From an uncultured archaeon (GTDB lineage Archaea > Aenigmatarchaeota > Aenigmatarchaeia > QMZP01), in NCBI GenBank assembly GCA_964389315.1, contig CAYMDJ010000001.1, positions 543-64,542 on the forward strand: 64,000 bases of DNA. Direction: 5' to 3'. The notes beneath the pieces were generated by a model that was given only the letters and a program-made list of their open reading frames with translations, was not told the DNA's origin and made no database searches. This document shows positions 42,057-54,937 of the stretch, in pieces (positions within the stretch are counted from its first letter, which is position 1; each line of letters opens with the position of its first letter). Both the position numbers and the translations under genes were made by a program.

Positions 42057-42059
42057 ATC

Positions 42060-42311
42060 CGTTTATTGTTAGAGTGGTATTTAAGTGTTGTTTTGGTGTT
42101 CGACCCCCGTTTCATATGGAGGTTTGAAAACCTCACCACAACCCTACCATTTCCTGTGGAGATTGTCTTTTTTGTGAATCAACAACAAGAAAGATGTATA
42201 ACATTGTTATATTATAATAAATAAATTTTTATGACAAACAAACCTTTTATAAACAACATTCCAATAGAAACAATGGGGTTGGGGTCTATAATTTAGGTTT
42301 GGTGTGTTTCA
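42060..42311. other. Candidate replication origin (oriC). It is an AT-rich unwinding region with an ORB-like element TTTCCTGTGGAG (42150-42161), immediately upstream of orc1/cdc6.
   Basis: A 250-bp non-coding gap with an ATAACATTGTTATATTATAATAAATAAATTTTTATGACAAAC stretch. The ORB-like core is the reverse complement of CTCCACAGGAAA. Position next to orc1 is canonical for archaea. Confidence 0.4.
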
Positions 42312-43514
42312 ATGCAGGGCTCGCTTAAGGATATATTTGATAGTTATGTTAAGGGGGGGCGTGTCTTTAAAAACAAGGAAACGCTCTCCATAAGGTTTGC
42401 GCCAGACAACATACCACACAGGGACAGGCAGTTGAAGCAGATTGGTTTAATAATCGCGCCCGTACTGAGGAACGAGAAGCCATCCAACATATTCGTATAC
42501 GGGAAGACGGGGACGGGAAAGACGCTCGTTGTCTCCAATGTTATAAACACACTACTCAAATCAGCGGACGGGTCTGATTCACGGCTTAGGATAATATATG
42601 TAAACTGTAAGATGAAGAAGACGACAGACACGGAATACAGGCTGCTGGCTCACCTACTATCTTACTTCGGTGAGACGGTCCCATACACAGGCCTTCCTAC
42701 AAATGAGCTCTACTCAAAATTCTATAAATACCTAGATTCAAGGAACCAGAACGTAATAATAGTCCTGGATGAGGTGGATTCCCTTATAAGGAAGATAGGT
42801 GATGACATACTCTACAACCTGACCAGGGTAAACCAGGAGCTTGACAACTCCCAGCTTACGATAATAGGCATATCAAACAACATATCCTTTATAGAGACTC
42901 TCGACCCCAGGGTGAGGTCCTCCCTGTCCGAGGAGGAGATTATATTCCCTCCGTACAATGCTTCCGAGCTGAGGGACATACTGACAGAGAGGACGGGCCA
43001 GGCGTTCAGCCCCGGAGCCGTCCCTACGGGAGTTGTCGCGAAATGCGCAGCGCTTGCCGCGCAGGAGCATGGGGATGCGAGGAAAGCGCTGGACCTACTG
43101 AGGGTTGCCGGTGAGATAGCAGAGAGGAACGGCAGCCCCGTGGTTGAGGAGAAACATGTTGACATGGCAGAAAAGAAGCTGGACACGGACAAGATAATGG
43201 AGACCATACATTCCCAACCAAAACAGTCGCAGGCTGTCCTGAAGGCGATTCTCTCCCTTTACGGGGACGGTGAGAAGAACATACAGACCGGGGACGTTTA
43301 TGATTCGTATTCAAGGATATGCCGCTCCAACGGAATCACCCCGCTTACGCAGAGGAGGGTATCGGATCTCATATCAGAGCTTGACATGTTCGGCGTAATC
43401 AACGCGAGGGTTACCTCAAAGGGGAGATACGGCAGGACTCGCGTGATAAATATAAACCACCCGGAAACGCTCATAAGAAAGATGGGGGACTTCCTGGTGG
43501 GGGAGTTTGGCTAG
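42312..43514 (+). CDS. orc1: Orc1/Cdc6 replication initiator (AAA+ ATPase with a C-terminal winged helix).
   Basis: Walker A VYGKTGTGKT, Walker B IIVLDEVD, ORC1-type organisation, 400 aa. Confidence 0.85.
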   Translation: MQGSLKDIFDSYVKGGRVFKNKETLSIRFAPDNIPHRDRQLKQIGLIIAPVLRNEKPSNIFVYGKTGTGKTLVVSNVINTLLKSADGSDSRLRIIYVNCKMKKTTDTEYRLLAHLLSYFGETVPYTGLPTNELYSKFYKYLDSRNQNVIIVLDEVDSLIRKIGDDILYNLTRVNQELDNSQLTIIGISNNISFIETLDPRVRSSLSEEEIIFPPYNASELRDILTERTGQAFSPGAVPTGVVAKCAALAAQEHGDARKALDLLRVAGEIAERNGSPVVEEKHVDMAEKKLDTDKIMETIHSQPKQSQAVLKAILSLYGDGEKNIQTGDVYDSYSRICRSNGITPLTQRRVSDLISELDMFGVINARVTSKGRYGRTRVININHPETLIRKMGDFLVGEFG

Positions 43515-44402
43515 ATGGACAGGAAGGGGGCTGTGAGGGAACTGATATCCCGGGGAGAAATACCCACACCAGAGCTTATAGACAGGATGGTTTCCGGGAG
43601 GGGGGGTGGTAAACCCGAAGAGAGGGGGGCTGAAAATAAACGGGGCGAAGAAAGGATTGGGGTGAAGGTTCTTTCGCCCGAGAAAAAGGAAAGGCTCTCG
43701 GCCCAGGATTTCACGGCGTATTACAATAACAAGTATGAGGGGTTGAGGGAGATTCTCTCCTCAAAAATCAGCGCGATATCCATAAACAAGGCCACGGAGA
43801 CCTTCGGTGAGGTTGGTGTTATCGGAATGGTTAGGGAGAAGACACCCACCGGTTATATTATAGAGGATACCACGGGCTCGATAGAGCTTGTCCAGAAAGG
43901 CAGCAACATGGTGACGGGTGATGTCATAGGGGTTTCCGGCCAGGTAAAGGAAAACCGGCTATTTGGAAATGGCGTCGTGCTTCCAGACGTCTCACTAACC
44001 CAAAAATATGGCACCGTAAAGGGGGTCAGGATAACACTCTCCAGGAAGCCGCCCAAAAAGAGGGAAGAGGGAACGCTCCATTTCCATGCGGAGGGAAACG
44101 GGGGGCTCCCAAACGGCAGCCGGATAGAGATATCTGGTGGAGGGAAGGTCAGGATACTCTTTTATTCCCCCTTGGGGAAGGCAGGGCCCCAGGAATGCAC
44201 AGAGTGCTTGAAGAAGAGGCACCTCACCATCTCAAATAAGGAGATAATTTCACCCAAGGACGATTTCATAATAAGAGAGGTCCCTGACATGCTGTGGTCG
44301 AATTCGGACAACCGTTTTGTGGAGAGTTATAAGGGGGTCCTCATAATATCGCCGGGCAGCGAGACCGTCAGCGTTGACCTGGGAACCAGGAGAGTCTATT
44401 AA
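43515..44402 (+). CDS. Hypothetical protein with an OB-fold-like segment, co-located with the replication genes.
   Basis: ORF track. Lys/Glu-rich N-terminus, then EVGVIGMVREKTPTGYIIEDTTGSIELV (OB-like). No catalytic motifs were recognised. Confidence 0.35.
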   Translation: MDRKGAVRELISRGEIPTPELIDRMVSGRGGGKPEERGAENKRGEERIGVKVLSPEKKERLSAQDFTAYYNNKYEGLREILSSKISAISINKATETFGEVGVIGMVREKTPTGYIIEDTTGSIELVQKGSNMVTGDVIGVSGQVKENRLFGNGVVLPDVSLTQKYGTVKGVRITLSRKPPKKREEGTLHFHAEGNGGLPNGSRIEISGGGKVRILFYSPLGKAGPQECTECLKKRHLTISNKEIISPKDDFIIREVPDMLWSNSDNRFVESYKGVLIISPGSETVSVDLGTRRVY

Positions 44403-44425
44403 TACAAGAAAACAAACATAAAAGG

Positions 44426-45640
44426 ATGTTTGTCTACATCCTGGCTGCCCTTCTTTTGGGGATTGCCATAGGCACCCTGACTGGTTTGATTCCGGGCGTC
44501 CATCCAAACACGGTGTTCGTGTTTCTTCTCAGCGTTGTCGTGTTCCTCCCACTGAGCCCCGAAATACTTCTGGTTTTCATAATCTCTGTGGCGGTCTCGA
44601 ACACGTTCACGGATTTCCTTCCCTCCCTGATATTCGGCGTGCCAGACCCGGCCACTGCACTTTCTGTCCTGCCCGGGCACAAAATGGTTCTGGAGGGGAA
44701 CGCACACGAAGCGCTGTTCCTGACGGTCGTTGGTGGCCTGGGCTCAATATTCCTGATAATCCTCACCCTGCCGCTGCTGTTCCTGGTCCTCCCTGCTCTC
44801 TATGGGACGATAAGCCCGTTCATGCACATAATCCTGTCGGGGATTGTTGCCTGGATGGTGTTCGGTGAGAGTAACAGGAAGGCCGCCCTGCTGGTCATTG
44901 CGCTGTCCGGGGCGCTGGGGTTCGTGTCACTTAATGCGTTCTCTGATGCTGCCCTGTTCCCTGCATTCACGGGGCTGTTTGCGCTGAGCACGCTCTTTGC
45001 TAGCGTGAGGAGAGAGGGAGAAATCCCCCCGCAGAAGAAACCCACTGATGTTAAGGGGCCATTCAGGAGAGGGATAATCACGGGCTGGCTTGCCGGCTGG
45101 TTCTCTGGAATGCTTCCTGGCATAGGAGCGGCCCAGGCAGGGGTCCTTGCTGCTCAGGTACTGAAGGCGAAGACCAGGGACTTCCTGACTGCGCTCGGTG
45201 GTATAAACACGTCCAATATCGTGTTTACGTTGATAATGCTCTACCTGATTGGCAGGACAAGGTCCGGTGCAGCAGTGGCGGTCTCACAAACAATCGGATT
45301 AATGGGACCAGGCCACTTGGTGCTGGCGATAATCACAGTCCTTGTGGTAGGGTGCGTTTCCGCGCCCCTTACACTCTTCCTGGGAAAGAGGTTCATATCG
45401 CTGGTGGAGAGGATTGATTACGTGAAGATGAACAAAACCATCATAATAGGACTGATAGTGATGGTGGTTGCCTTCTCCGGCCTGGTTGGGATAATCATAA
45501 CATTCGCGGCGGCGTGTATAGGGATAATAACGATAAATTCCGGAGTAAGGAGGTCGCATCTAATGGGTTTCCTGTTGGTGCCAACGATTCTATACTTCTC
45601 TTCGGTTGGGGTTTATATGAAGGTTTTTGCGGGGATGTGA
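44426..45640 (+). CDS. Polytopic membrane protein, possibly TctA/DUF112-family transporter subunit.
   Basis: About 11 TM helices, Gly/Pro-rich loops (GLIPGVHP, GMLPGIGAAQAG). Confidence 0.45.
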   Translation: MFVYILAALLLGIAIGTLTGLIPGVHPNTVFVFLLSVVVFLPLSPEILLVFIISVAVSNTFTDFLPSLIFGVPDPATALSVLPGHKMVLEGNAHEALFLTVVGGLGSIFLIILTLPLLFLVLPALYGTISPFMHIILSGIVAWMVFGESNRKAALLVIALSGALGFVSLNAFSDAALFPAFTGLFALSTLFASVRREGEIPPQKKPTDVKGPFRRGIITGWLAGWFSGMLPGIGAAQAGVLAAQVLKAKTRDFLTALGGINTSNIVFTLIMLYLIGRTRSGAAVAVSQTIGLMGPGHLVLAIITVLVVGCVSAPLTLFLGKRFISLVERIDYVKMNKTIIIGLIVMVVAFSGLVGIIITFAAACIGIITINSGVRRSHLMGFLLVPTILYFSSVGVYMKVFAGM

Positions 45641-45647
45641 AGGTTGC

Positions 45648-45693
45648 CATGTCCCATTGGGGGTAGACGTTAACTTCATGTGGAGTTCATATA
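45648..45693. repeat. 46-bp perfect direct repeat, copy 1 (CATGTCCCATTGGGGGTAGACGTTAACTTCATGTGGAGTTCATAT).
   Basis: An identical string recurs at 46389-46434. The two copies bracket the LAGLIDADG gene. Confidence 0.8.
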
Positions 45694-45729
45694 AAAACGA
45701 CCCAAACTTCACGTGTTTATACTAAATAT

Positions 45730-46401
45730 CTATACAGAAAGAGGATCAAGCGCTTCATCAAGAAGGTCTATCTTATATCCCAGCGTGAAGCCGACCCTGT
45801 CTTTAAAGAGGTCCAGCCGGGTCTTCCCCTCTATATCAAGGCAGAAATAAGAACCACTGCTGTAGAGGGACGAGCGAATGCCAACCCCCTTAAGGAGAGA
45901 ACCGACACCCTCCAGTCCCCTCTGGTTGGCAGACGTGCACCTGACCCTTCTTATCTTATGCTTCCCCCTTTTTGTCTTCTTGACGTAATGGGTCACGATA
46001 CCTTCACAATCAAAGAAACCCCTCAGGAACATCACACCGAGCCCTTTGTCCTCGGCGCATCTCCTGGGAATCACCCAGGAAGAGGTTCCTGCGACCATTC
46101 CCCACCTTGACACAAACGATTCAACAACATCCTTCCCGTATTTAACGACCCTGTAAGAGACGCGCGACTCGTTTCCATGCTCCCTCATGCTGGTATAAAC
46201 TCCCGGCTTTCCCAAACATCTCATGAGCGCGTCTGAGAAAACCTTCACGAGTTCCCACCTTGACGTGCCCAGCGATATGTAGTAGTTTCCAGCTTCATGG
46301 TTGAGCTCTATCCTGCCTGCGGCGCAGAGGAGACCGCATAGGTAGGCGCCTGTTTTCTCCATGCGTGATATTTGGAGGCAGGTTTTATAAGCATGTCCCA
46401 T
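45730..46401 (-). CDS. Free-standing double-motif LAGLIDADG homing endonuclease. The first motif is degenerate (lacks the acidic residue) and the second is intact.
   Basis: YLCGLLCAAGRI (motif 1, D replaced by A) and FLRGFFDCEGIV (motif 2). 223 aa. The start codon lies inside repeat copy 2. Confidence 0.65.
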   Translation of the reverse strand: MGHAYKTCLQISRMEKTGAYLCGLLCAAGRIELNHEAGNYYISLGTSRWELVKVFSDALMRCLGKPGVYTSMREHGNESRVSYRVVKYGKDVVESFVSRWGMVAGTSSWVIPRRCAEDKGLGVMFLRGFFDCEGIVTHYVKKTKRGKHKIRRVRCTSANQRGLEGVGSLLKGVGIRSSLYSSGSYFCLDIEGKTRLDLFKDRVGFTLGYKIDLLDEALDPLSV

Positions 46402-46434
46402 TGGGGGTAGACGTTAACTTCATGTGGAGTTCAT
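46389..46434. repeat. 46-bp perfect direct repeat, copy 2.
   Basis: Identical to 45648-45693. Confidence 0.8.
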
Positions 46435-46562
46435 ATGAAACACCACAACCAAACCCTGCGTAGGAAGCAAAGGCACATGAAATTCACGCCAGTCACGTCA
46501 AGACGCTCCGGGCTTTGTCTGGGGGAACGGGTATATGTTTTTAATTTGCACATCCCATCACT

Positions 46563-49238
46563 TCAGTGGCGGGCACTTAACGGGCACGTCATCACACACT
46601 CAACCGGTCCCTTTGACGAGCCTATCAGGAGAGCCTTCCCACATTCACATGTCCCCGAAAGGGACGAGCCCTCATAGAACCTTCCACACCCGCTGCACAC
46701 GAATCCGGTCATGTCAGATATCCCAGCCTCCCTCGCAACGTTCTTATCCTCCACACCATTCAGGCCGAACGATGACATCAGGTCCATCTGCTTCCCGTTC
46801 CCAAGGAGCTCTGACTTGCTCACACCAAGGGCCCCGAATATCCTCTCCAGCGGAGGAAGGAGCTGGTTCTCGATATAATACTTGGGGTCCACCTGAACCC
46901 CTTTCTCCTTTATATAGTTCGGGTCCTCTGCCCGCTTTGACAGCAGTGACGTTCCCTTAACTATGACATAACCGACCCTGTCTCCCACACCAGGAGCCTC
47001 CTGCGGGTTCCTTATCCTCATCTTCTTCACGAGTTCTACGTGTGGCTGTATCCCCGCATACCTCTCAGGCGCCCTGGTCAGGGACTTGGTAACGACGAGC
47101 TTCTCCACAGGTATCTTCCCGCTAGTCAGCCCCCTAACTATCTCACCGAACCTCTTCACGGCCTCTTCCTGGTCGTCCCTCTTAACTATGATGTCTATTA
47201 TCTCCTTCATGGTGTCGCTGACCAGCTCGCACCAGTCCCTCCTGACGGTCTCTATTCCCTTCATCTCTATACCCTCCTTCCACCCGCCGTTCGAGGGCTC
47301 GAACTTCCACGCGACATACCTCTTCTTCGTGAGCGGAAGAAATCTCCGGAAGAGTTTCTCGAACTCCAGCTCCATCATACCAGGAAGCTTGTCTGTCACA
47401 TACTCCGATATCTTCTCGGCCTCCCTGCGTATCCTGTTCATGTCATCCATACCCATCTTCACCATGACGGAATCCGTATCACCGTACACCACCCTATGCC
47501 CGAACTCCTTCTCTACCATATCCTTGGTCTTGTGTATCATGTCCCTGCCCGTGGCGGTTATCACGTTGGCTATCCTTATGTCATATATCCTGGCCCTCGA
47601 GTATCCCATGTGCCCGTAGAACGCGTTTGCCATTATCTTCAGTGCCCACTGCTCAGCGTCGTAAACCCTCCTCCTGTTCTCATCCTTGGCATCCACCATC
47701 TTCTTCTTTGCAGCCCCCCTCCTCTTCATCAATTCCTCGAGTATCCCCGGGATTATGCCGTGCCTTACGCCCTTGGGGACGAACGACGTCCCCGTGACCG
47801 TGACTATGGGCTTCTCCACCTTCTTGTCCGTTATCATGGTCGTGGGGCAGACGTTGAAGGTCCTTATTATCGATGGATACATGCTCTTGAAATCAAGGAC
47901 CACCACATTATCGTGAAGCCCCTTGTCTGGCTCGAGGACAAACCCGCCCTTGAGCTCATTCTTTCTCGATGCCTCCCTCTCGGCAACGTCCTCCTCCTTC
48001 GGTCTGCACGGGAAGACGAATCCCCCCTTGTTGAATTCCTGGAGAAGGAAGTTCTCTATCCGTTGTGTCTCCCCGCTGGTCAGTGTGTCCTGTATAAGGG
48101 TCCCCGATATCTTTGAAAGCGCTATGTATTTGTCCATCAGCCTCATCTTCAGCACGAGGTCCAGCGCGAGCCTCGAGTCCTTCTTGCAGTATTCGACGAA
48201 CCTCTCGAACCCCTCCTGGCCTCCTTTCCAGAGGTCTTCCATCTCGCTTATCCGTATGGGAATCTTGCTGTCCCCGAGCAGGTTCTTGACGACCGTCCCG
48301 AGGTCATACCTCATGAAGGAGAAGTCCTTCTTGATGATTTCAAAACTGTCGAATATTATCCTTCCTGTCGCGGATACCCTGTATCTCGCCATCAGCTTCT
48401 TCGCTATGACCGGCTTCTGTGTGCACCTTCCCATCACGGGCCTCATCCTGTATTTTTTCATCCTCTCGAGCAGGTATGGAAAGTCGAAGTTGTTCACGTT
48501 ATACCCGGTTATGACGTCCGGGTCATACTGGGAGACTATATCCAGGAACCTGCTTATGATTTCCTCCTCTGTCGAGACCGCCGTCACCCCCTTGCCGGGC
48601 CTGGTGCTTATAAGCATGGATTTCTCGCCCTTGAACTCCTCGCTGAAGACCACCGATATCATTATCACGGGGTCCCTTACGGCATCTGGGGCGGTCCCGG
48701 AAACGAGCGGTATGCACTCTATGTCAAATGCCATGAACCTCAGGGGAGCGTTTTCCATCCTATCCACGGGCTCTATGCTCCCGGCCTTTATTGACTGGTC
48801 TGTCCTCACGGTGGCTGTTGGCGTTCCCTTACCCTCTTTTACCTTTATCCAACCGAGACCCTTTATACCGAAGTCGTTCATGAACCTGTACTTGAACAGG
48901 ATGTCAGACTCATACGTCCGGAGGCCCTTGCCATGTATCATGTCCCTTATTTCAGGCGTCCTTGACGGGTTCTGCAGGGTTATCTTCCACATATCAACAG
49001 GGTCGCTGAACCCCATGACCCTCTTCCTCCTCACCTTCTCCCTCTTGAGGACGTTGGGGTCGTCCTTGATGAACTCGAGCGCCCTCTCATCATCAACATA
49101 GAAATAAGGAAGATACTTGTCATAGAATACACAGACAGTCTTTCCATCCATCTTCTTGCCGAATATCCTCACGATCGGCTTCTCATCAACCAGCACGTAA
49201 TCGACGTCAAGCACCTGTATCTCCATCATCACACCCAT
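46563..49238 (-). CDS. polB: DNA polymerase B (family B, replicative), intein-free, 891 aa.
   Basis: Motif A DFKSMYPSII, motif C VVYGDTDSVMV, exonuclease motifs FDIE and YNVNNFDFPYL, C-terminal Cys cluster. Confidence 0.9.
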   Translation of the reverse strand: MGVMMEIQVLDVDYVLVDEKPIVRIFGKKMDGKTVCVFYDKYLPYFYVDDERALEFIKDDPNVLKREKVRRKRVMGFSDPVDMWKITLQNPSRTPEIRDMIHGKGLRTYESDILFKYRFMNDFGIKGLGWIKVKEGKGTPTATVRTDQSIKAGSIEPVDRMENAPLRFMAFDIECIPLVSGTAPDAVRDPVIMISVVFSEEFKGEKSMLISTRPGKGVTAVSTEEEIISRFLDIVSQYDPDVITGYNVNNFDFPYLLERMKKYRMRPVMGRCTQKPVIAKKLMARYRVSATGRIIFDSFEIIKKDFSFMRYDLGTVVKNLLGDSKIPIRISEMEDLWKGGQEGFERFVEYCKKDSRLALDLVLKMRLMDKYIALSKISGTLIQDTLTSGETQRIENFLLQEFNKGGFVFPCRPKEEDVAEREASRKNELKGGFVLEPDKGLHDNVVVLDFKSMYPSIIRTFNVCPTTMITDKKVEKPIVTVTGTSFVPKGVRHGIIPGILEELMKRRGAAKKKMVDAKDENRRRVYDAEQWALKIMANAFYGHMGYSRARIYDIRIANVITATGRDMIHKTKDMVEKEFGHRVVYGDTDSVMVKMGMDDMNRIRREAEKISEYVTDKLPGMMELEFEKLFRRFLPLTKKRYVAWKFEPSNGGWKEGIEMKGIETVRRDWCELVSDTMKEIIDIIVKRDDQEEAVKRFGEIVRGLTSGKIPVEKLVVTKSLTRAPERYAGIQPHVELVKKMRIRNPQEAPGVGDRVGYVIVKGTSLLSKRAEDPNYIKEKGVQVDPKYYIENQLLPPLERIFGALGVSKSELLGNGKQMDLMSSFGLNGVEDKNVAREAGISDMTGFVCSGCGRFYEGSSLSGTCECGKALLIGSSKGPVECVMTCPLSARH

Positions 49239-53428: not shown

Positions 53429-54937
53429 TCACTTTATAACGACCCCTAGCTTGCTCAGCGGCTTCCCGTTTATGAAGCCTCTCAGGGTTTCCGGGAGGTC
53501 GCTTACCCTGACCCTTATCTGCTTCATGGTGTCCCTGTCCCTCAGGGTGACGTCATTCCCTTTGAGCGAGTCATAATCTATGGTTATCCCCGCAGCAACC
53601 CCTGCCTCGTCAATCCTCCGGTATCTCCTGCCGATGCTACCTGACGAGTCATAGAACACGCTGAATCCGGCTTCCTGGAGAAGCCTCTTCACCCCCCTTG
53701 CCTTCTCCGGGAGGTTGTCCTTGTTTACGAGAGGAAAGATTCCCGCATCGAAGGGAGAGACCCTCCTCGGGAAGAGCATGACGTCCCTTTCCTTCTCTTC
53801 CCTGTAAGCGAGCTCGAAAAGGGCGTATATGTTCCTGTCAACCCCGAAGCTCAGCTCAAGCACGTGAGGGAGAATCTTCTTGCCGTCAACGTCAACCACC
53901 ATGCTGACGCCGGACACCTTCTGGTGACCCGATAGGTCATGGTCTGCCCTGTAGTGGAGGCCGGCAATCTCCCTGTATCCCCCTATACTTTCGAGGTCCA
54001 TCTCAACATCCCAGTGATACTTGTTGTAAAACGCCCTCTCATCCTCATCCAGCTCCCTGAACCGAAACTTCTCTTTCGGTAGGCCAAGCACGTCCAGGTA
54101 GAACTGCTGCATCATTGCCATGTGATAGACGTAGAACTTCGGGAGCTTCAGCACCCTGACAGCATCCTTCGCAGCCACCTCCTTTATCGTCCCCCTCGAG
54201 CGGTTCTTCACCGGAAAGACCCTGATTCTATACCTTTCAATCTCCCTGAACCTGGGGTGCTGCCTTATATTGTCAGGGTCAAAGAATACCTGGAGCTCTG
54301 CCTGCGTGAACTCCCTCTGCCTTATCAGGACATTCCTCGGTGATATCTCGTTCCTGAAGGCCTTCCCCACCACGGCAAGCCCCATGGGAAGCCTCTTCCT
54401 CAGGGCATCGAATTCGTGCTTGAAGTTAACGTAAGCGCCCTGCGCGGTTTCCGGGGAAAGATACCCCGTCCTCTTGGTCTTGCCCGTCCCTATCTCCAGG
54501 GGAAACATCATGTTGAGGATACCGACCTCCGCAAGCTCCCCCTTACATTTCGGGCACCTTATGTTGTTGTCCTTTATCAACTTCTCCATCTTCCTGAGGG
54601 AAACGCCCTCGAACGTCCCTCCCAGTTCTGCCTCTATTATGTGGTCTGCCCTCTCCACGTTAAGGCATTTCTTGCATTTGACTATGGGGTCCACGAAGGA
54701 CTCCAGGTGTCCTGATGCCCTGAACACTTCCTCGGGCATGACCTGGGAGACCTGTATCTCATGGAAGTTGTCGTCCAGTCCCAGGAAATATTCCCTCCAG
54801 ACGTTCTCCCACTTCCTCTTAAGGGACGCCCCCAGGTGGGCATAGTCATAAAACCCCGCTATAGGGCTGTATATCTGGGAGGACTGCCAGAAGAATCCCC
54901 TCCTCTTGGCTATGTCGAGTAGTTTGTCAGTCTTCAT
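53429..54937 (-). CDS. glyS: Glycyl-tRNA synthetase (archaeal/eukaryotic-type class II) with a zinc-ribbon insertion.
   Basis: RRGFFWQSSQIY ... GFYDY, class II motifs, C-terminal anticodon-binding domain, and a CKKC...CPKC insertion. Confidence 0.75.
   Translation of the reverse strand: MKTDKLLDIAKRRGFFWQSSQIYSPIAGFYDYAHLGASLKRKWENVWREYFLGLDDNFHEIQVSQVMPEEVFRASGHLESFVDPIVKCKKCLNVERADHIIEAELGGTFEGVSLRKMEKLIKDNNIRCPKCKGELAEVGILNMMFPLEIGTGKTKRTGYLSPETAQGAYVNFKHEFDALRKRLPMGLAVVGKAFRNEISPRNVLIRQREFTQAELQVFFDPDNIRQHPRFREIERYRIRVFPVKNRSRGTIKEVAAKDAVRVLKLPKFYVYHMAMMQQFYLDVLGLPKEKFRFRELDEDERAFYNKYHWDVEMDLESIGGYREIAGLHYRADHDLSGHQKVSGVSMVVDVDGKKILPHVLELSFGVDRNIYALFELAYREEKERDVMLFPRRVSPFDAGIFPLVNKDNLPEKARGVKRLLQEAGFSVFYDSSGSIGRRYRRIDEAGVAAGITIDYDSLKGNDVTLRDRDTMKQIRVRVSDLPETLRGFINGKPLSKLGVVIK

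What the first reader, a model, noticed from the sequence alone, without database searches (positions are those of the whole stretch)
45648..46434. Free-standing LAGLIDADG homing-endonuclease gene bracketed by 46-bp perfect direct repeats, inserted just downstream of an intein-less polB
ORF 45730-46401 has two LAGLIDADG-type motifs. The first (LCGLLCAAG) has lost the catalytic acidic residue and the second (LRGFFDCEG) keeps it, which suggests a degenerating or heterodimer-like enzyme. An exact 46-bp repeat flanks it on both sides (45648-45693, 46389-46434), and copy 2 contains the start codon. polB genes are classic intein/HEN hosts, yet this polB (46563-49238) carries no intein. The HEN may be a relic of intein loss, a mobile free-standing HEG that duplicated its target on insertion, or a domesticated regulator.
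Basis: seen in the sequence. Interest (0 to 1): 0.65.

Follow-up and report, generated by a model that had tools for sequence, protein, structure and literature searches.

The report
Domesticated LAGLIDADG gene bracketed by ultraconserved sites
What looked like a mobile homing-endonuclease gene is a long-resident, probably non-cutting DNA-binding protein gene next to the replication genes of an uncultured archaeal lineage, enclosed by two copies of a non-coding element that resembles a replication-origin box and has hardly changed while the rest of the DNA diverged to saturation.

Summary
The repeat is real: 45 nt exact at 45648-45692 and 46392-46436, with no other copy in the window. The ORF is a two-domain LAGLIDADG-fold protein. 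Its true start is 46362 (210 aa), so the repeat lies upstream of the promoter and does not hold the start codon.

The mobile-HEG reading fails:
- The gene and both repeats sit at the same place, at the 3' end of polB near orc1/cdc6, in every related genome found.
- Its neighbours diverge in parallel, and dN/dS is 0.08-0.16.
- Distant homologues (28-40% identity, some named Aenigmatarchaeota) also sit beside polB.
- Three of those distant lineages have their own flanking repeats sharing the core TCCAYRTGAAGTTAACG..CCCCC, yet two of the three proteins lack both catalytic acids (P0158 was not inspected).

Both copies are nearly invariant (42-43 of 44 columns) where four-fold sites are only 19% invariant. 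The core contains a mini-ORB-like dyad that matches the canonical origin boxes upstream of cdc6.

Best reading: a domesticated DNA-binding protein with two cognate operator sites. Whether the protein itself or Orc1/Cdc6 binds them is unresolved.

The parts
45730..46362 (-). Gene for a 210-aa two-domain LAGLIDADG-fold protein (MEKTGAY...PLSV; the stop codon is at 45730-45732). Motif 1, YLCGLLCAAG, has no acidic residue. Motif 2, FLRGFFDCEG, keeps Glu.
   Evidence: Pfam LAGLIDADG_3 at 6e-15. Homologues are 209-210 aa. The start was verified. AF2 pLDDT 87, with Foldseek matches to I-Tsp061I, I-DmoI and WhiA. dN/dS 0.08-0.16.
46392..46440 (-). Repeat copy A, upstream of the gene. Read on the - strand it is TTTCATATGAAC-TCCACATGAAGTTAACGTCTACCCCC-AATGGGACATG. 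It is exact over 46392-46436. It contains the mini-ORB-like dyad CTCC-ACAT-GAAG and a C-run.
   Evidence: 43 of 44 columns are invariant in 5 lineages whose 4-fold sites are only 12/64 invariant. The distance from the core to the ATG is exactly 62 nt in all 5 lineages.
45648..45696 (-). Repeat copy B, 33-49 nt downstream of the stop codon and 8 nt beyond the stop codon of the convergent TctA gene. It is exact over 45648-45692.
   Evidence: 42 of 44 columns are invariant across 5 lineages.
46383..46391 (-). Putative TATA box (C-TTATAAAA), directly abutting copy A. It starts 28 nt before the A of the ATG, which implies a leaderless mRNA.
   Evidence: GCTTATAAA is invariant in the alignment of four lineages. 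L020 and L013/L018 have the same arrangement. The promoter role is inferred from archaeal promoter geometry, not measured.
46472..46490 (.). Conserved palindrome GGCGTGAATTTCATGTGCC between the polB stop and copy A. It carries two inverted CRYRTGAA half-sites of the same type as the repeat core.
   Evidence: TGAAT-TTCATGTG is invariant in four lineages. It is part of a cluster of 5 CRYRTGAAR motifs within about 800 bp, against 14 in 64 kb.
45707..45715 (-). An extra CACGTGAAG motif, 33 nt upstream of the core of copy B.
   Evidence: The corresponding [CT][AG]TGAAGTT is present in the other lineages.
46563..49238 (-). Family-B DNA polymerase gene without an intein. The LAGLIDADG gene lies at its 3' end in every lineage examined.
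   Evidence: Pfam DNA_pol_B 1.1e-112, one continuous match. Synteny.
42057..42311 (.). Canonical-looking oriC upstream of orc1/cdc6. ORBs of the form TTCC-N4-GAAAC-N1-3-GGGGT lie at about 42103-42121 (-), 42150-42161 (-) and 42259-42286 (+), flanking an AT-rich stretch. This is context, and it is the source of the ORB comparison.
42312..45640 (+). Three genes on the other side of copy B: orc1/cdc6 (42312-43514), a truncated PolD-small-subunit-like gene (43515-44402) and a TctA-family membrane protein gene (44426-45640).
   Evidence: Pfam and NCBIfam.

Best explanation
The ORF is not a mobile homing-endonuclease gene. It is a vertically inherited, domesticated LAGLIDADG-fold protein that has kept the DNA-binding saddle and has lost nuclease competence. 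One catalytic acid is missing here, and both are missing in most of the family.

The gene belongs to the replication-gene island (orc1/cdc6, DP1-like, polB) of an uncultured archaeal lineage. The closest named relatives for this gene cluster are Aenigmatarchaeota MAGs.

The two 45-nt repeats are neither a target-site duplication nor an insertion scar. They are two copies of a strongly selected protein-binding element, with core TCCAYRTGAAGTTAACG-N2-5-CCCCC, that has bracketed the gene since before these lineages split.

Proposed mechanism (inferred, not shown):
- The protein binds as a monomer to the asymmetric core of about 25 bp in each copy.
- Copy A touches the BRE/TATA box of its own leaderless gene, so occupancy sets the gene's transcription (autoregulation).
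- Copy B, at the 3' end between convergent genes, is either bridged to copy A or blocks incoming transcription.
- Because the core includes an ORB-type dyad identical in kind to the origin boxes 3.4 kb away, Orc1/Cdc6 probably binds or competes at the same sites. This would couple the module to replication.
- Gene conversion between the copies keeps them identical within a genome.

Shown: the fold, the loss of catalytic residues, vertical inheritance, purifying selection on the gene and on both sites, and the ORB resemblance. Inferred: which protein binds, and the regulatory outcome.
For: **Synteny**
- The order polB - repeat A - gene - repeat B - TctA recurs in L001, L006, L007, L008, L009 and L011.
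- Neighbouring proteins diverge in parallel: PolB 84-91% identity, TctA 75-87%, the LAGLIDADG protein 76-83%.

**Selection on the gene and on the repeats**
- dN/dS is 0.08-0.16, with dS of 0.66 to above 2.
- 4-fold sites are 12/64 invariant, whereas the repeats are 43/44 and 42/44 invariant. The spacing from repeat core to ATG is fixed at 62 nt.

**Deep conservation**
- Homologues at 28-40% identity (PolB only 44-56% identical) again sit at the 3' end of polB near cdc6.
- L013, L018 and L020 have their own flanking repeats with the same core.
- L012 and L015 have a single ATGAACTCCACGTGAAAT / ACTCCACGTGAAAC element at the same distance of about 68-72 nt from the start.

**Loss of catalytic residues**
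- Both acids are lost in P0008 and P0157 (LCGAG/FFDSAG and LCSKG/FFDSGC), although the repeats are retained in their lineages.
- Each LAGLIDADG motif supplies one catalytic residue, and the two active sites share a metal ion (PMC3017599).

**Fold**
- AF2 model with pLDDT 87. Matches to I-Tsp061I (TM 0.77), I-DmoI, and WhiA, which is a domesticated LAGLIDADG transcription factor.

**Concerted evolution of the two copies**
- L007 carries the same G>A change in both copies.
- The L013 copies are 57/58 identical, yet they differ from L018 in the 3' part.

**ORB link**
- Exact CTCCAYATGAAR occurs in the window only at the oriC box (42110) and in the two repeats.
- The Pyrococcus mini-ORB core is TTCC..GAA, and a second Cdc6-bound ORB cluster lies downstream of cdc6 in Thermococcales (PMC1904270).
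Against: - No experiment or model shows that this protein binds the repeats. The universally conserved part of the element is the ORB-like dyad, which points to Orc1/Cdc6 rather than to a protein that has diverged to 30% identity.
- 44-49 nt of invariance is longer than one LAGLIDADG footprint (about 22 bp). A single binder therefore does not explain the whole element.
- L012 and L015 have only the upstream copy, so two sites are not obligatory for the family.
- The window subfamily keeps Glu in motif 2, so residual nicking activity cannot be excluded.
- All data come from MAGs or metagenome contigs of a few lineages. Look-up caps stopped a wider survey.
Confidence: 0.55

Rival explanations
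1. The repeats are origin-recognition-box-type sites bound only by Orc1/Cdc6. They would form a second ORB cluster a few kb from oriC, like the one in dp1 of Thermococcales. The LAGLIDADG gene simply sits between them, perhaps after an ancient insertion that duplicated an ORB, and is at most regulated by Orc1/Cdc6. Its protein acts elsewhere or on other DNA.
For: - The core CTCC-ACAT-GAAG (TTCC-ATAT-GAAG in L013/L020) fits TTCC-N4-GAA, the same form as the canonical ORBs at 42103-42286.
- The N4 centre is the variable part, as in the ORBs.
- The part shared by all six lineages is the dyad.
- L012 has an inverted, fully canonical ORB (TTCCAGTCGAAATAAGGGGGT) 60 nt from the element.
- CRYRTGAAR motifs cluster around the gene.
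- Cdc6 is 54-61% identical across the lineages, against 28-33% for the LAGLIDADG protein.
- Precedent: a second Cdc6-bound ORB cluster in Pyrococcus (PMC1904270).
Against: - There is no G-string after the dyad. Instead GTTAACG and a C-run follow, and these are invariant in four lineages.
- The repeats are more conserved than the bona fide ORBs of the same genomes, which vary at 3 or more positions among three lineages.
- The two copies are direct, not inverted, and they enclose a gene rather than an AT-rich unwinding element.
- This reading does not explain why the sites always bracket this particular gene at a fixed distance from its promoter.
Confidence: 0.33
2. This is the first reader's main reading: an active or recently active free-standing homing endonuclease gene that moved into the polB-TctA spacer and duplicated its 45-bp target.
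For: - LAGLIDADG fold, with one catalytic Glu retained.
- Direct repeats flank the gene.
- Contig L010 switches from 100% identity with L009 to 100% identity with the window exactly inside repeat A. This could be cassette exchange by recombination.
Against: - Same locus in all lineages, parallel divergence with the neighbours, dN/dS about 0.1, and no empty site.
- The repeats are conserved between lineages, not just within one.
- Catalytically dead relatives keep the repeats.
- Homing by double-strand-break repair does not make target duplications (established knowledge). An intact target on both sides would be self-cleaved.
- No homologues in the phage or plasmid collections.
- The L010 mosaic is equally well explained as an assembly chimera at a shared 50-nt identity.
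Confidence: 0.03
3. The repeats are recombination sites (att-like or deletion-prone direct repeats) that allow the 0.7-kb cassette to be excised or lost as an on/off switch for the gene.
For: - Direct orientation, identical copies, 706-744 bp apart.
- Signs of gene conversion between the copies.
- The L010 breakpoint lies in the repeat.
Against: - No excised or empty form was seen in any contig.
- There is no recombinase gene in the module.
- The repeat is conserved between lineages far beyond what a homology-only substrate needs.
- Copy A has a fixed position relative to the promoter.
Confidence: 0.05
4. The repeats are RNA-level elements, such as a small RNA gene, a terminator or a processing signal. 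Alternatively, the gene is a leftover of a lost polB intein.
For: - A T-run precedes copy B.
- The Pfam family LAGLIDADG_3 is rich in intein endonuclease domains, and NCBIfam gives weak matches to intein-bearing proteins.
Against: - No Rfam hit and no tRNA.
- Folding z-scores are 0 to +1 on both strands, and no hairpin is conserved between lineages.
- There is no Hint domain.
- The best sequence and fold match is an intron-encoded enzyme.
Confidence: 0.04

Closest known systems
WhiA (DUF199), the bacterial transcription factor derived from a LAGLIDADG homing endonuclease
   Same: Monomeric two-domain LAGLIDADG fold that has lost catalytic residues. Vertically inherited in a conserved gene neighbourhood and used for sequence-specific DNA binding. 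Foldseek TM 0.63-0.73 to 3hyi and 8dy9_I.
   Different: WhiA has an extra C-terminal helix-turn-helix domain and its own Pfam families. This protein is 210 aa with only LAGLIDADG_3, it is archaeal, it keeps one acidic residue, and it is bracketed by two long conserved sites. There is no detectable sequence relationship beyond the fold.
I-Tsp061I and I-DmoI, archaeal rRNA-intron-encoded monomeric LAGLIDADG homing endonucleases
   Same: Closest solved structures and about the same size. 2dch: TM 0.75-0.77, rmsd 3.1 A, 18% identity. 2dch is the only PDB sequence hit with any LAGLIDADG relevance, at E = 0.25.
   Different: Those enzymes have both catalytic acids, lie inside introns, and are sporadically distributed mobile genes. 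This one is free-standing, fixed in position, and lacks the motif-1 acid.
Origin recognition boxes (ORB and mini-ORB) bound by Orc1/Cdc6, including the second ORB cluster inside dp1 of Thermococcales (PMC1904270)
   Same: A TTCC-N4-GAA dyad a few kb from orc1/cdc6, conserved over large distances, and sharing an exact 12-mer class with this genome's own oriC boxes.
   Different: No G-string: GTTAACG plus a C-run follow instead. The element is 45 nt and almost invariant. There are two direct copies around a gene rather than inverted copies around an AT-rich unwinding element.
HO endonuclease of yeast (a domesticated intein-type LAGLIDADG enzyme)
   Same: A LAGLIDADG protein recruited by the host for a chromosomal function at defined sites.
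   Different: HO is an active double-strand nuclease with a remnant Hint domain and zinc fingers. Here the active site is incomplete, and it is absent in sister lineages.
UBP/ucm, the accessory origin-binding protein and motif of Sulfolobus (PMC12141716)
   Same: Precedent for a non-initiator protein that recognises a short conserved motif in archaeal origins.
   Different: An unrelated protein and motif. UBP is abundant and has hundreds of sites, whereas here only two sites are seen.

Membership tests
LAGLIDADG homing endonuclease (functional, mobile) | Two LAGLIDADG helices with the alpha/beta saddle fold | tested here: met
   Pfam LAGLIDADG_3 at 6e-15. AF2 pLDDT 87 and Foldseek probability 1.0 to I-Tsp061I, I-DmoI and PI-SceI.
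LAGLIDADG homing endonuclease (functional, mobile) | A catalytic Asp or Glu at the end of each LAGLIDADG motif | tested here: not met
   Motif 1 is LCGLLCAAG, with Ala aligned to the Asp of I-Tsp061I. Motif 2 keeps Glu. This pattern is invariant in 7 homologues. P0008 and P0157 lack both acids.
LAGLIDADG homing endonuclease (functional, mobile) | Mobility: presence/absence polymorphism, empty target sites, sporadic distribution | tested here: not met
   The gene is at the same locus in all lineages found. Divergence parallels the neighbours. dN/dS 0.08-0.16. The survey was limited by look-up caps.
LAGLIDADG homing endonuclease (functional, mobile) | Residence in an intron or intein, or insertion that splits its target | tested here: not met
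   The gene is free-standing with its own TATA box. The flanking element is intact on both sides.
LAGLIDADG homing endonuclease (functional, mobile) | Site-specific DNA cleavage | not testable with these tools
   This needs purified protein and the 45-mer substrate.
WhiA-type domesticated LAGLIDADG regulator | LAGLIDADG scaffold without catalytic residues, vertically inherited | tested here: met
   The window subfamily retains one Glu.
WhiA-type domesticated LAGLIDADG regulator | C-terminal helix-turn-helix domain and the WhiA Pfam signatures | tested here: not met
   Only LAGLIDADG_3 matched at E up to 1. The model ends after the second LAGLIDADG domain.
WhiA-type domesticated LAGLIDADG regulator | Binds specific promoter DNA, including its own promoter | not testable with these tools
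   This is only inferred, from copy A abutting the TATA box at a fixed distance.
Archaeal ORB / mini-ORB | A TTCC-N4-GAA dyad | tested here: met
   CTCC-ACAT-GAAG in the window. TTCC-AYRT-GAAG in L013, L018 and L020. The core motifs are as given in PMC1904270.
Archaeal ORB / mini-ORB | A G-string immediately 3' of the dyad (long ORB) | tested here: not met
   The dyad is followed by TTAACGTCTA and then CCCCC. The genome's own ORBs have GAAAC-N1-3-GGGGT.
Archaeal ORB / mini-ORB | Proximity to orc1/cdc6 | tested here: met
   Copy B lies 2.1 kb and copy A 2.9 kb from the cdc6 stop. Cdc6 is within a few genes in L012, L013 and L015.
Archaeal ORB / mini-ORB | Inverted copies flanking an AT-rich unwinding element | tested here: not met
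   The copies are direct, 744 bp apart, and enclose a coding gene. The canonical arrangement exists separately at 42057-42311.
Archaeal ORB / mini-ORB | Binding by Orc1/Cdc6 | not testable with these tools
   Needs EMSA or footprinting.
Target-site duplication of a mobile insertion | The repeat is specific to the occupied allele; related genomes carry a single copy | tested here: not met
   Both copies are present and nearly identical across 5 close and 3 distant lineages.
Intein remnant | Hint-domain splicing blocks flanking the endonuclease domain | tested here: not met
   No Hint or intein Pfam match. The protein begins 6 residues before the first LAGLIDADG helix.

The most novel reading that the evidence does not exclude
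The module may be a previously unrecognised replication-origin accessory system of Aenigmatarchaeota-like archaea. In this reading, a homing endonuclease that once targeted an origin recognition box was captured. It now acts as a sequence-specific, non-cutting (or single-strand-nicking) factor that competes or cooperates with Orc1/Cdc6 at two ORB-derived sites beside polB. In that way it could tune origin firing, fork passage or polB expression.
Probability: 0.2. Interest if true: 0.85.

Novelty: new variant of a known kind. Interest (0 to 1): 0.62.

Why it matters
Domestication of homing endonucleases into host DNA-binding proteins is known from only a few cases, such as WhiA and HO. Two full-text searches of the held library returned no archaeal case tied to the replication island.

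Here the protein comes with its probable binding sites. These sites are among the most conserved non-coding sequences one could expect: a 17-nt core unchanged across lineages whose PolB is only about 50% identical. They also look like modified origin boxes.

This gives a concrete, testable protein-DNA pair. It bears on how origin-proximal elements and accessory factors work in DPANN archaea, which cannot yet be studied genetically. It is also a clean example of what becomes of a selfish gene after fixation.

Tried and rejected
**Searches that found nothing**
- Rfam at gathering and at permissive thresholds, and a tRNA scan. Nothing at the repeats.
- RNA folding of both copies on both strands. 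No better than shuffles.
- The sigma-70 promoter and terminator scan is not informative for archaea. It only flagged the conserved palindrome at 46472-46490.
- tblastn of the protein against the plasmid and phage collections gave no match. IMG/VR gave one weak partial hit, L019, which was not pursued.
- The cluster look-up gave no organism names for the window group.
- The PDB sequence search gave only I-Tsp061I at E = 0.25 and an irrelevant methyltransferase.
- Two full-text searches returned no listed paper that links LAGLIDADG proteins with archaeal origins.

**Ideas considered and dropped**
- A hairpin GTC..CCC/GGG..GAC inside the repeat. The L007 and L006 variants break it, and it is absent from L013.
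- A C/D-box sRNA. There are no C or D boxes.
- A dif/Xer site. No resemblance, judged from memory only.
- A third near-match to the non-ORB half, at 54421-54440. It lies inside a coding region without the dyad and is taken as chance.

**Correction**
- My early note that L008 lacks cdc6 was wrong. That contig simply ends inside the DP1-like gene.
Full report
**1. The observation**

The window holds a perfect direct repeat of 45 nt at 45648-45692 and 46392-46436. It extends to 49 nt with one mismatch. None of 100 shuffles gave a match, and there is no third copy in 64 kb.

The ORF between the copies (45730-46401, minus strand) matches Pfam LAGLIDADG_3 at 6e-15. An AlphaFold model built on 15 homologues has pLDDT 87 and pTM 0.87. 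Its best PDB match is the archaeal intron-encoded enzyme I-Tsp061I (TM 0.75-0.77). I-DmoI, intein endonuclease domains and WhiA follow.

In the HMMER alignment to I-Tsp061I, motif 1 (LCGLLCAAG) has Ala at the catalytic Asp position and motif 2 (FFDCEG) has Glu. The neighbouring polB has one uninterrupted polymerase match and no intein.

One detail is wrong. The ATG inside copy 2 is not the start.
- All homologues are 209-210 aa and begin MEKTGAY, which is window 46362.
- The upstream in-frame ATG runs into stop codons in L006 and L008, and it is ATA in L007.
- An invariant CTTATAAA lies between the repeat and the true ATG. It starts 28 nt before the ATG, which fits a leaderless archaeal mRNA. 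That last step is an inference from promoter geometry.

**2. The gene is not mobile**

Exact and near homologues were traced to contigs. In L001-L005 (same species), L006 (GCA_975962685.1), L007, L008, L009 and L011 the order is always polB, repeat A, gene, repeat B, then the convergent TctA. The DP1-like and orc1/cdc6 genes follow wherever the contig reaches that far.

Identity to the window proteins falls in parallel for all genes:

| Protein | Identity to the window protein |
|---|---|
| PolB | 84-91% |
| Cdc6 | about 91% |
| TctA | 75-87% |
| DP1-like | 65-74% |
| LAGLIDADG | 76-83% |

L008 is the most distant lineage for every gene.

Nei-Gojobori dN/dS for the LAGLIDADG gene is 0.08-0.16, with dS from 0.66 to saturation. 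The gene is therefore maintained by selection, not decaying. tblastn found nothing in the phage or plasmid collections.

**3. The repeats are under stronger constraint than the protein**

Across the five close lineages only 12 of 64 four-fold degenerate columns are invariant, and pairwise four-fold identity is 0.38-0.59. Yet the 44-nt element TATGAACTCCACATGAAGTTAACGTCTACCCCCAATGGGACATG is invariant at 43 of 44 columns in copy A and at 42 of 44 in copy B. With a neutral invariance rate of about 0.19 per column, the probability of this is below 1e-25 (my calculation).

The distance from the repeat core to the start codon is exactly 62 nt in all five lineages, while the distance from the stop codon to copy B varies from 33 to 49 nt.

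The only differences are a G>A present in both copies of L007 and a G>A in copy B of L006. The shared L007 change suggests gene conversion between the copies.

A scan of one genome per GTDB species for a 22-mer of the core found a single contig with two copies 730 bp apart. The element is therefore not a dispersed intergenic repeat.

**4. The module is ancient**

A profile search of 1.8 billion representatives found a family of free-standing proteins of about 200-230 aa, with 10 hits at E below 1e-30 and 54 below 1e-10. In most members both catalytic positions are non-acidic.

Members at 28-40% identity could be placed on contigs. Three things vary between these lineages: the neighbouring genes, the flanking element, and the catalytic acids.

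| Protein (locus, source) | Gene neighbourhood | Element | Catalytic acids |
|---|---|---|---|
| P0021 (L012, Aenigmatarchaeota MAG) | TctA > gene > < polB < DP1-like < cdc6 | Single ATGAACTCCACGTGAAAT upstream | not assessed here |
| P0162 (L015, Aenigmarchaeota MAG) | < NAC, gene >, < PAP2 < polB < DP1-like < cdc6 | Single ACTCCACGTGAAAC upstream | not assessed here |
| P0157 (L013) | polB > gene > < TctA, with cdc6 nearby | 58-nt flanking repeat, 57/58 identical: ..TTCCATATGAAGTTAACGTCCCCCC.. | both lost (LCSKG / FFDSGC) |
| P0158 (L018) | contig too short to show | TTCCACATGAAGTTAACGACCCCCC upstream; a second copy starts at the contig end | not assessed here |
| P0008 (L020) | contig too short to show | 33-nt flanking repeat: ATTCCAT[G/A]TGAAGTTAACGGGTCCCCCTGACAG | both lost (LCGAG / FFDSAG) |

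PolB in L012, L013, L015 and L018 is 44-56% identical to the window's; Cdc6 in L012, L013 and L015 is 54-61% identical.

In L012 and L015 the gene is convergent with polB and there is no spacer for a second copy. Their single element sits about 68-72 nt before the start, the same distance as in the window.

The repeats are kept in two lineages (L013, L020) whose proteins lack both catalytic acids. They therefore cannot be homing or cleavage targets.

**5. What the element looks like**

Directly upstream of orc1/cdc6 (42057-42311) there is a textbook origin. It has ORBs of the form TTCC-N4-GAAAC-N1-3-GGGGT in inverted orientation around an AT-rich stretch, and it is conserved in L006 and L007.

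The repeat core CTCC-ACAT-GAAG has the same dyad form. Exact matches to CTCCAYATGAAR occur in the 64 kb only at the oriC box (42110) and in the two repeats. Five of the 14 CRYRTGAAR motifs in the window lie within about 800 bp around the gene. They include a conserved palindrome at 46472-46490.

In Pyrococcus the mini-ORB core is TTCC...GAA. A second cluster of ORBs, bound by Cdc6, lies inside dp1 downstream of cdc6 and is conserved in Thermococcales (PMC1904270). That is a precedent for origin boxes a few kb from oriC.

The element nevertheless differs from an ORB in four ways:
- It has no G-string. GTTAACG and a C-run follow the dyad instead, and they are invariant in four lineages.
- It is more conserved than the genome's true ORBs.
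- The two copies are direct, not inverted.
- They enclose a gene.

**6. Other readings tested**

There is no Rfam family, no tRNA, and no folding signal on either strand. No hairpin is conserved between lineages.

Contig L010 is 100% identical to L009 up to repeat A and 100% identical to the window after it. That is either recombination at the repeat or an assembly chimera, and it cannot be decided here.

**7. Interpretation**

Shown:
- a LAGLIDADG-fold protein with an incomplete active site, absent altogether in relatives;
- vertical inheritance at the 3' end of polB in the replication island;
- strong purifying selection on the gene and on both flanking elements;
- an ORB-type dyad in the element;
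- copy A abutting the gene's TATA box.

Inferred: the protein is a sequence-specific DNA binder, and the two elements are its operators. They would give autoregulation at copy A, and bridging or a transcription block at copy B, with probable interplay with Orc1/Cdc6.

The main rival is that only Orc1/Cdc6 binds. It is nearly as likely for the dyad part. It explains less well the extra invariant 30 nt and the constant pairing of the sites with this gene.

I give about 0.9 to 'resident, domesticated, not a mobile HEG'. I give about 0.55 to the full statement, including self-binding.

**8. Comparison and novelty**

By fold and fate the protein works like WhiA, a domesticated LAGLIDADG DNA binder. 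It is not a WhiA family member, because it has no HTH domain and no WhiA signatures.

It is a LAGLIDADG_3 family member by sequence. It fails the defining features of a functional homing endonuclease: the catalytic pair, mobility, and an intron or intein setting.

The element resembles an ORB but fails the G-string and arrangement criteria.

Neither full-text search returned a listed paper connecting LAGLIDADG proteins with archaeal origins. I therefore class the finding as a new variant of a known kind.

Noticed in passing
window 42057-42311: A canonical-looking replication origin directly upstream of orc1/cdc6. ORBs lie at about 42103-42121 (-), 42150-42161 (-) and 42259-42286 (+, TTCCAATAGAAACAATGGGGTTGGGGTC), around an AT-rich stretch at about 42195-42245. 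The arrangement is conserved in L006 and L007.
   Followed up: partly
window 43515-44402 (+): A 295-aa ORF whose start overlaps the cdc6 stop. It matches only the N-terminal and OB-fold part of the PolD small subunit (NCBIfam PRK04036, 1.6e-20, far below cut-off) and has no phosphoesterase domain. A counterpart of 290-338 aa follows cdc6 in all related lineages, including the Aenigmatarchaeota MAGs. It may be a truncated DP1-like replication factor.
   Followed up: partly
L010 1-4219 (Ga0315536_1000729): A mosaic contig. Bases 1-591 are 99.7% identical to the window. The middle is 100% identical to L009. The sequence is again 100% identical to the window from repeat A onward, with the switch exactly inside the repeat. 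This is either real inter-strain recombination at the conserved element or an assembly chimera.
   Followed up: partly
window about 44000-48000: Cumulative GC skew peaks at about 44-46 kb and the sign of the skew flips there. This coincides with the convergent gene boundary at copy B. It could reflect the coding strand or the replication direction.
   Followed up: no
L012 4850-4961: In the Aenigmatarchaeota MAG, the spacer upstream of the LAGLIDADG gene holds a fully canonical ORB (TTCCAGTCGAAATAAGGGGGT, - strand). It is inverted relative to the CTCCACGTGAAATAAAGGAGACCCCCC element, with about 60 AT-rich nt and a CATGAATTCATG palindrome between them. This is an origin-like arrangement right at the gene.
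   Followed up: partly
window 46563-46700 (polB C-terminus): PolB ends with a Cys-rich tail (..CSGCGRFYEGSSLSGTCECGK..) beyond the Pfam polymerase domain. It may be a zinc-binding extension.
   Followed up: no
L013 3937-3994: In this lineage the duplicated unit is 58 nt. It includes the TATA-like TTTTATATTTTT, and it overlaps the last codons of TctA. Copy B could therefore drive an antisense transcript into TctA. This is not so in the window lineage.
   Followed up: no
window 54421-54440 (+): TGAAGTTAACGTAAGCGCCC matches the non-ORB half of the repeat with one mismatch. It lies inside a 502-aa ORF and has no dyad, so it is probably chance.
   Followed up: yes
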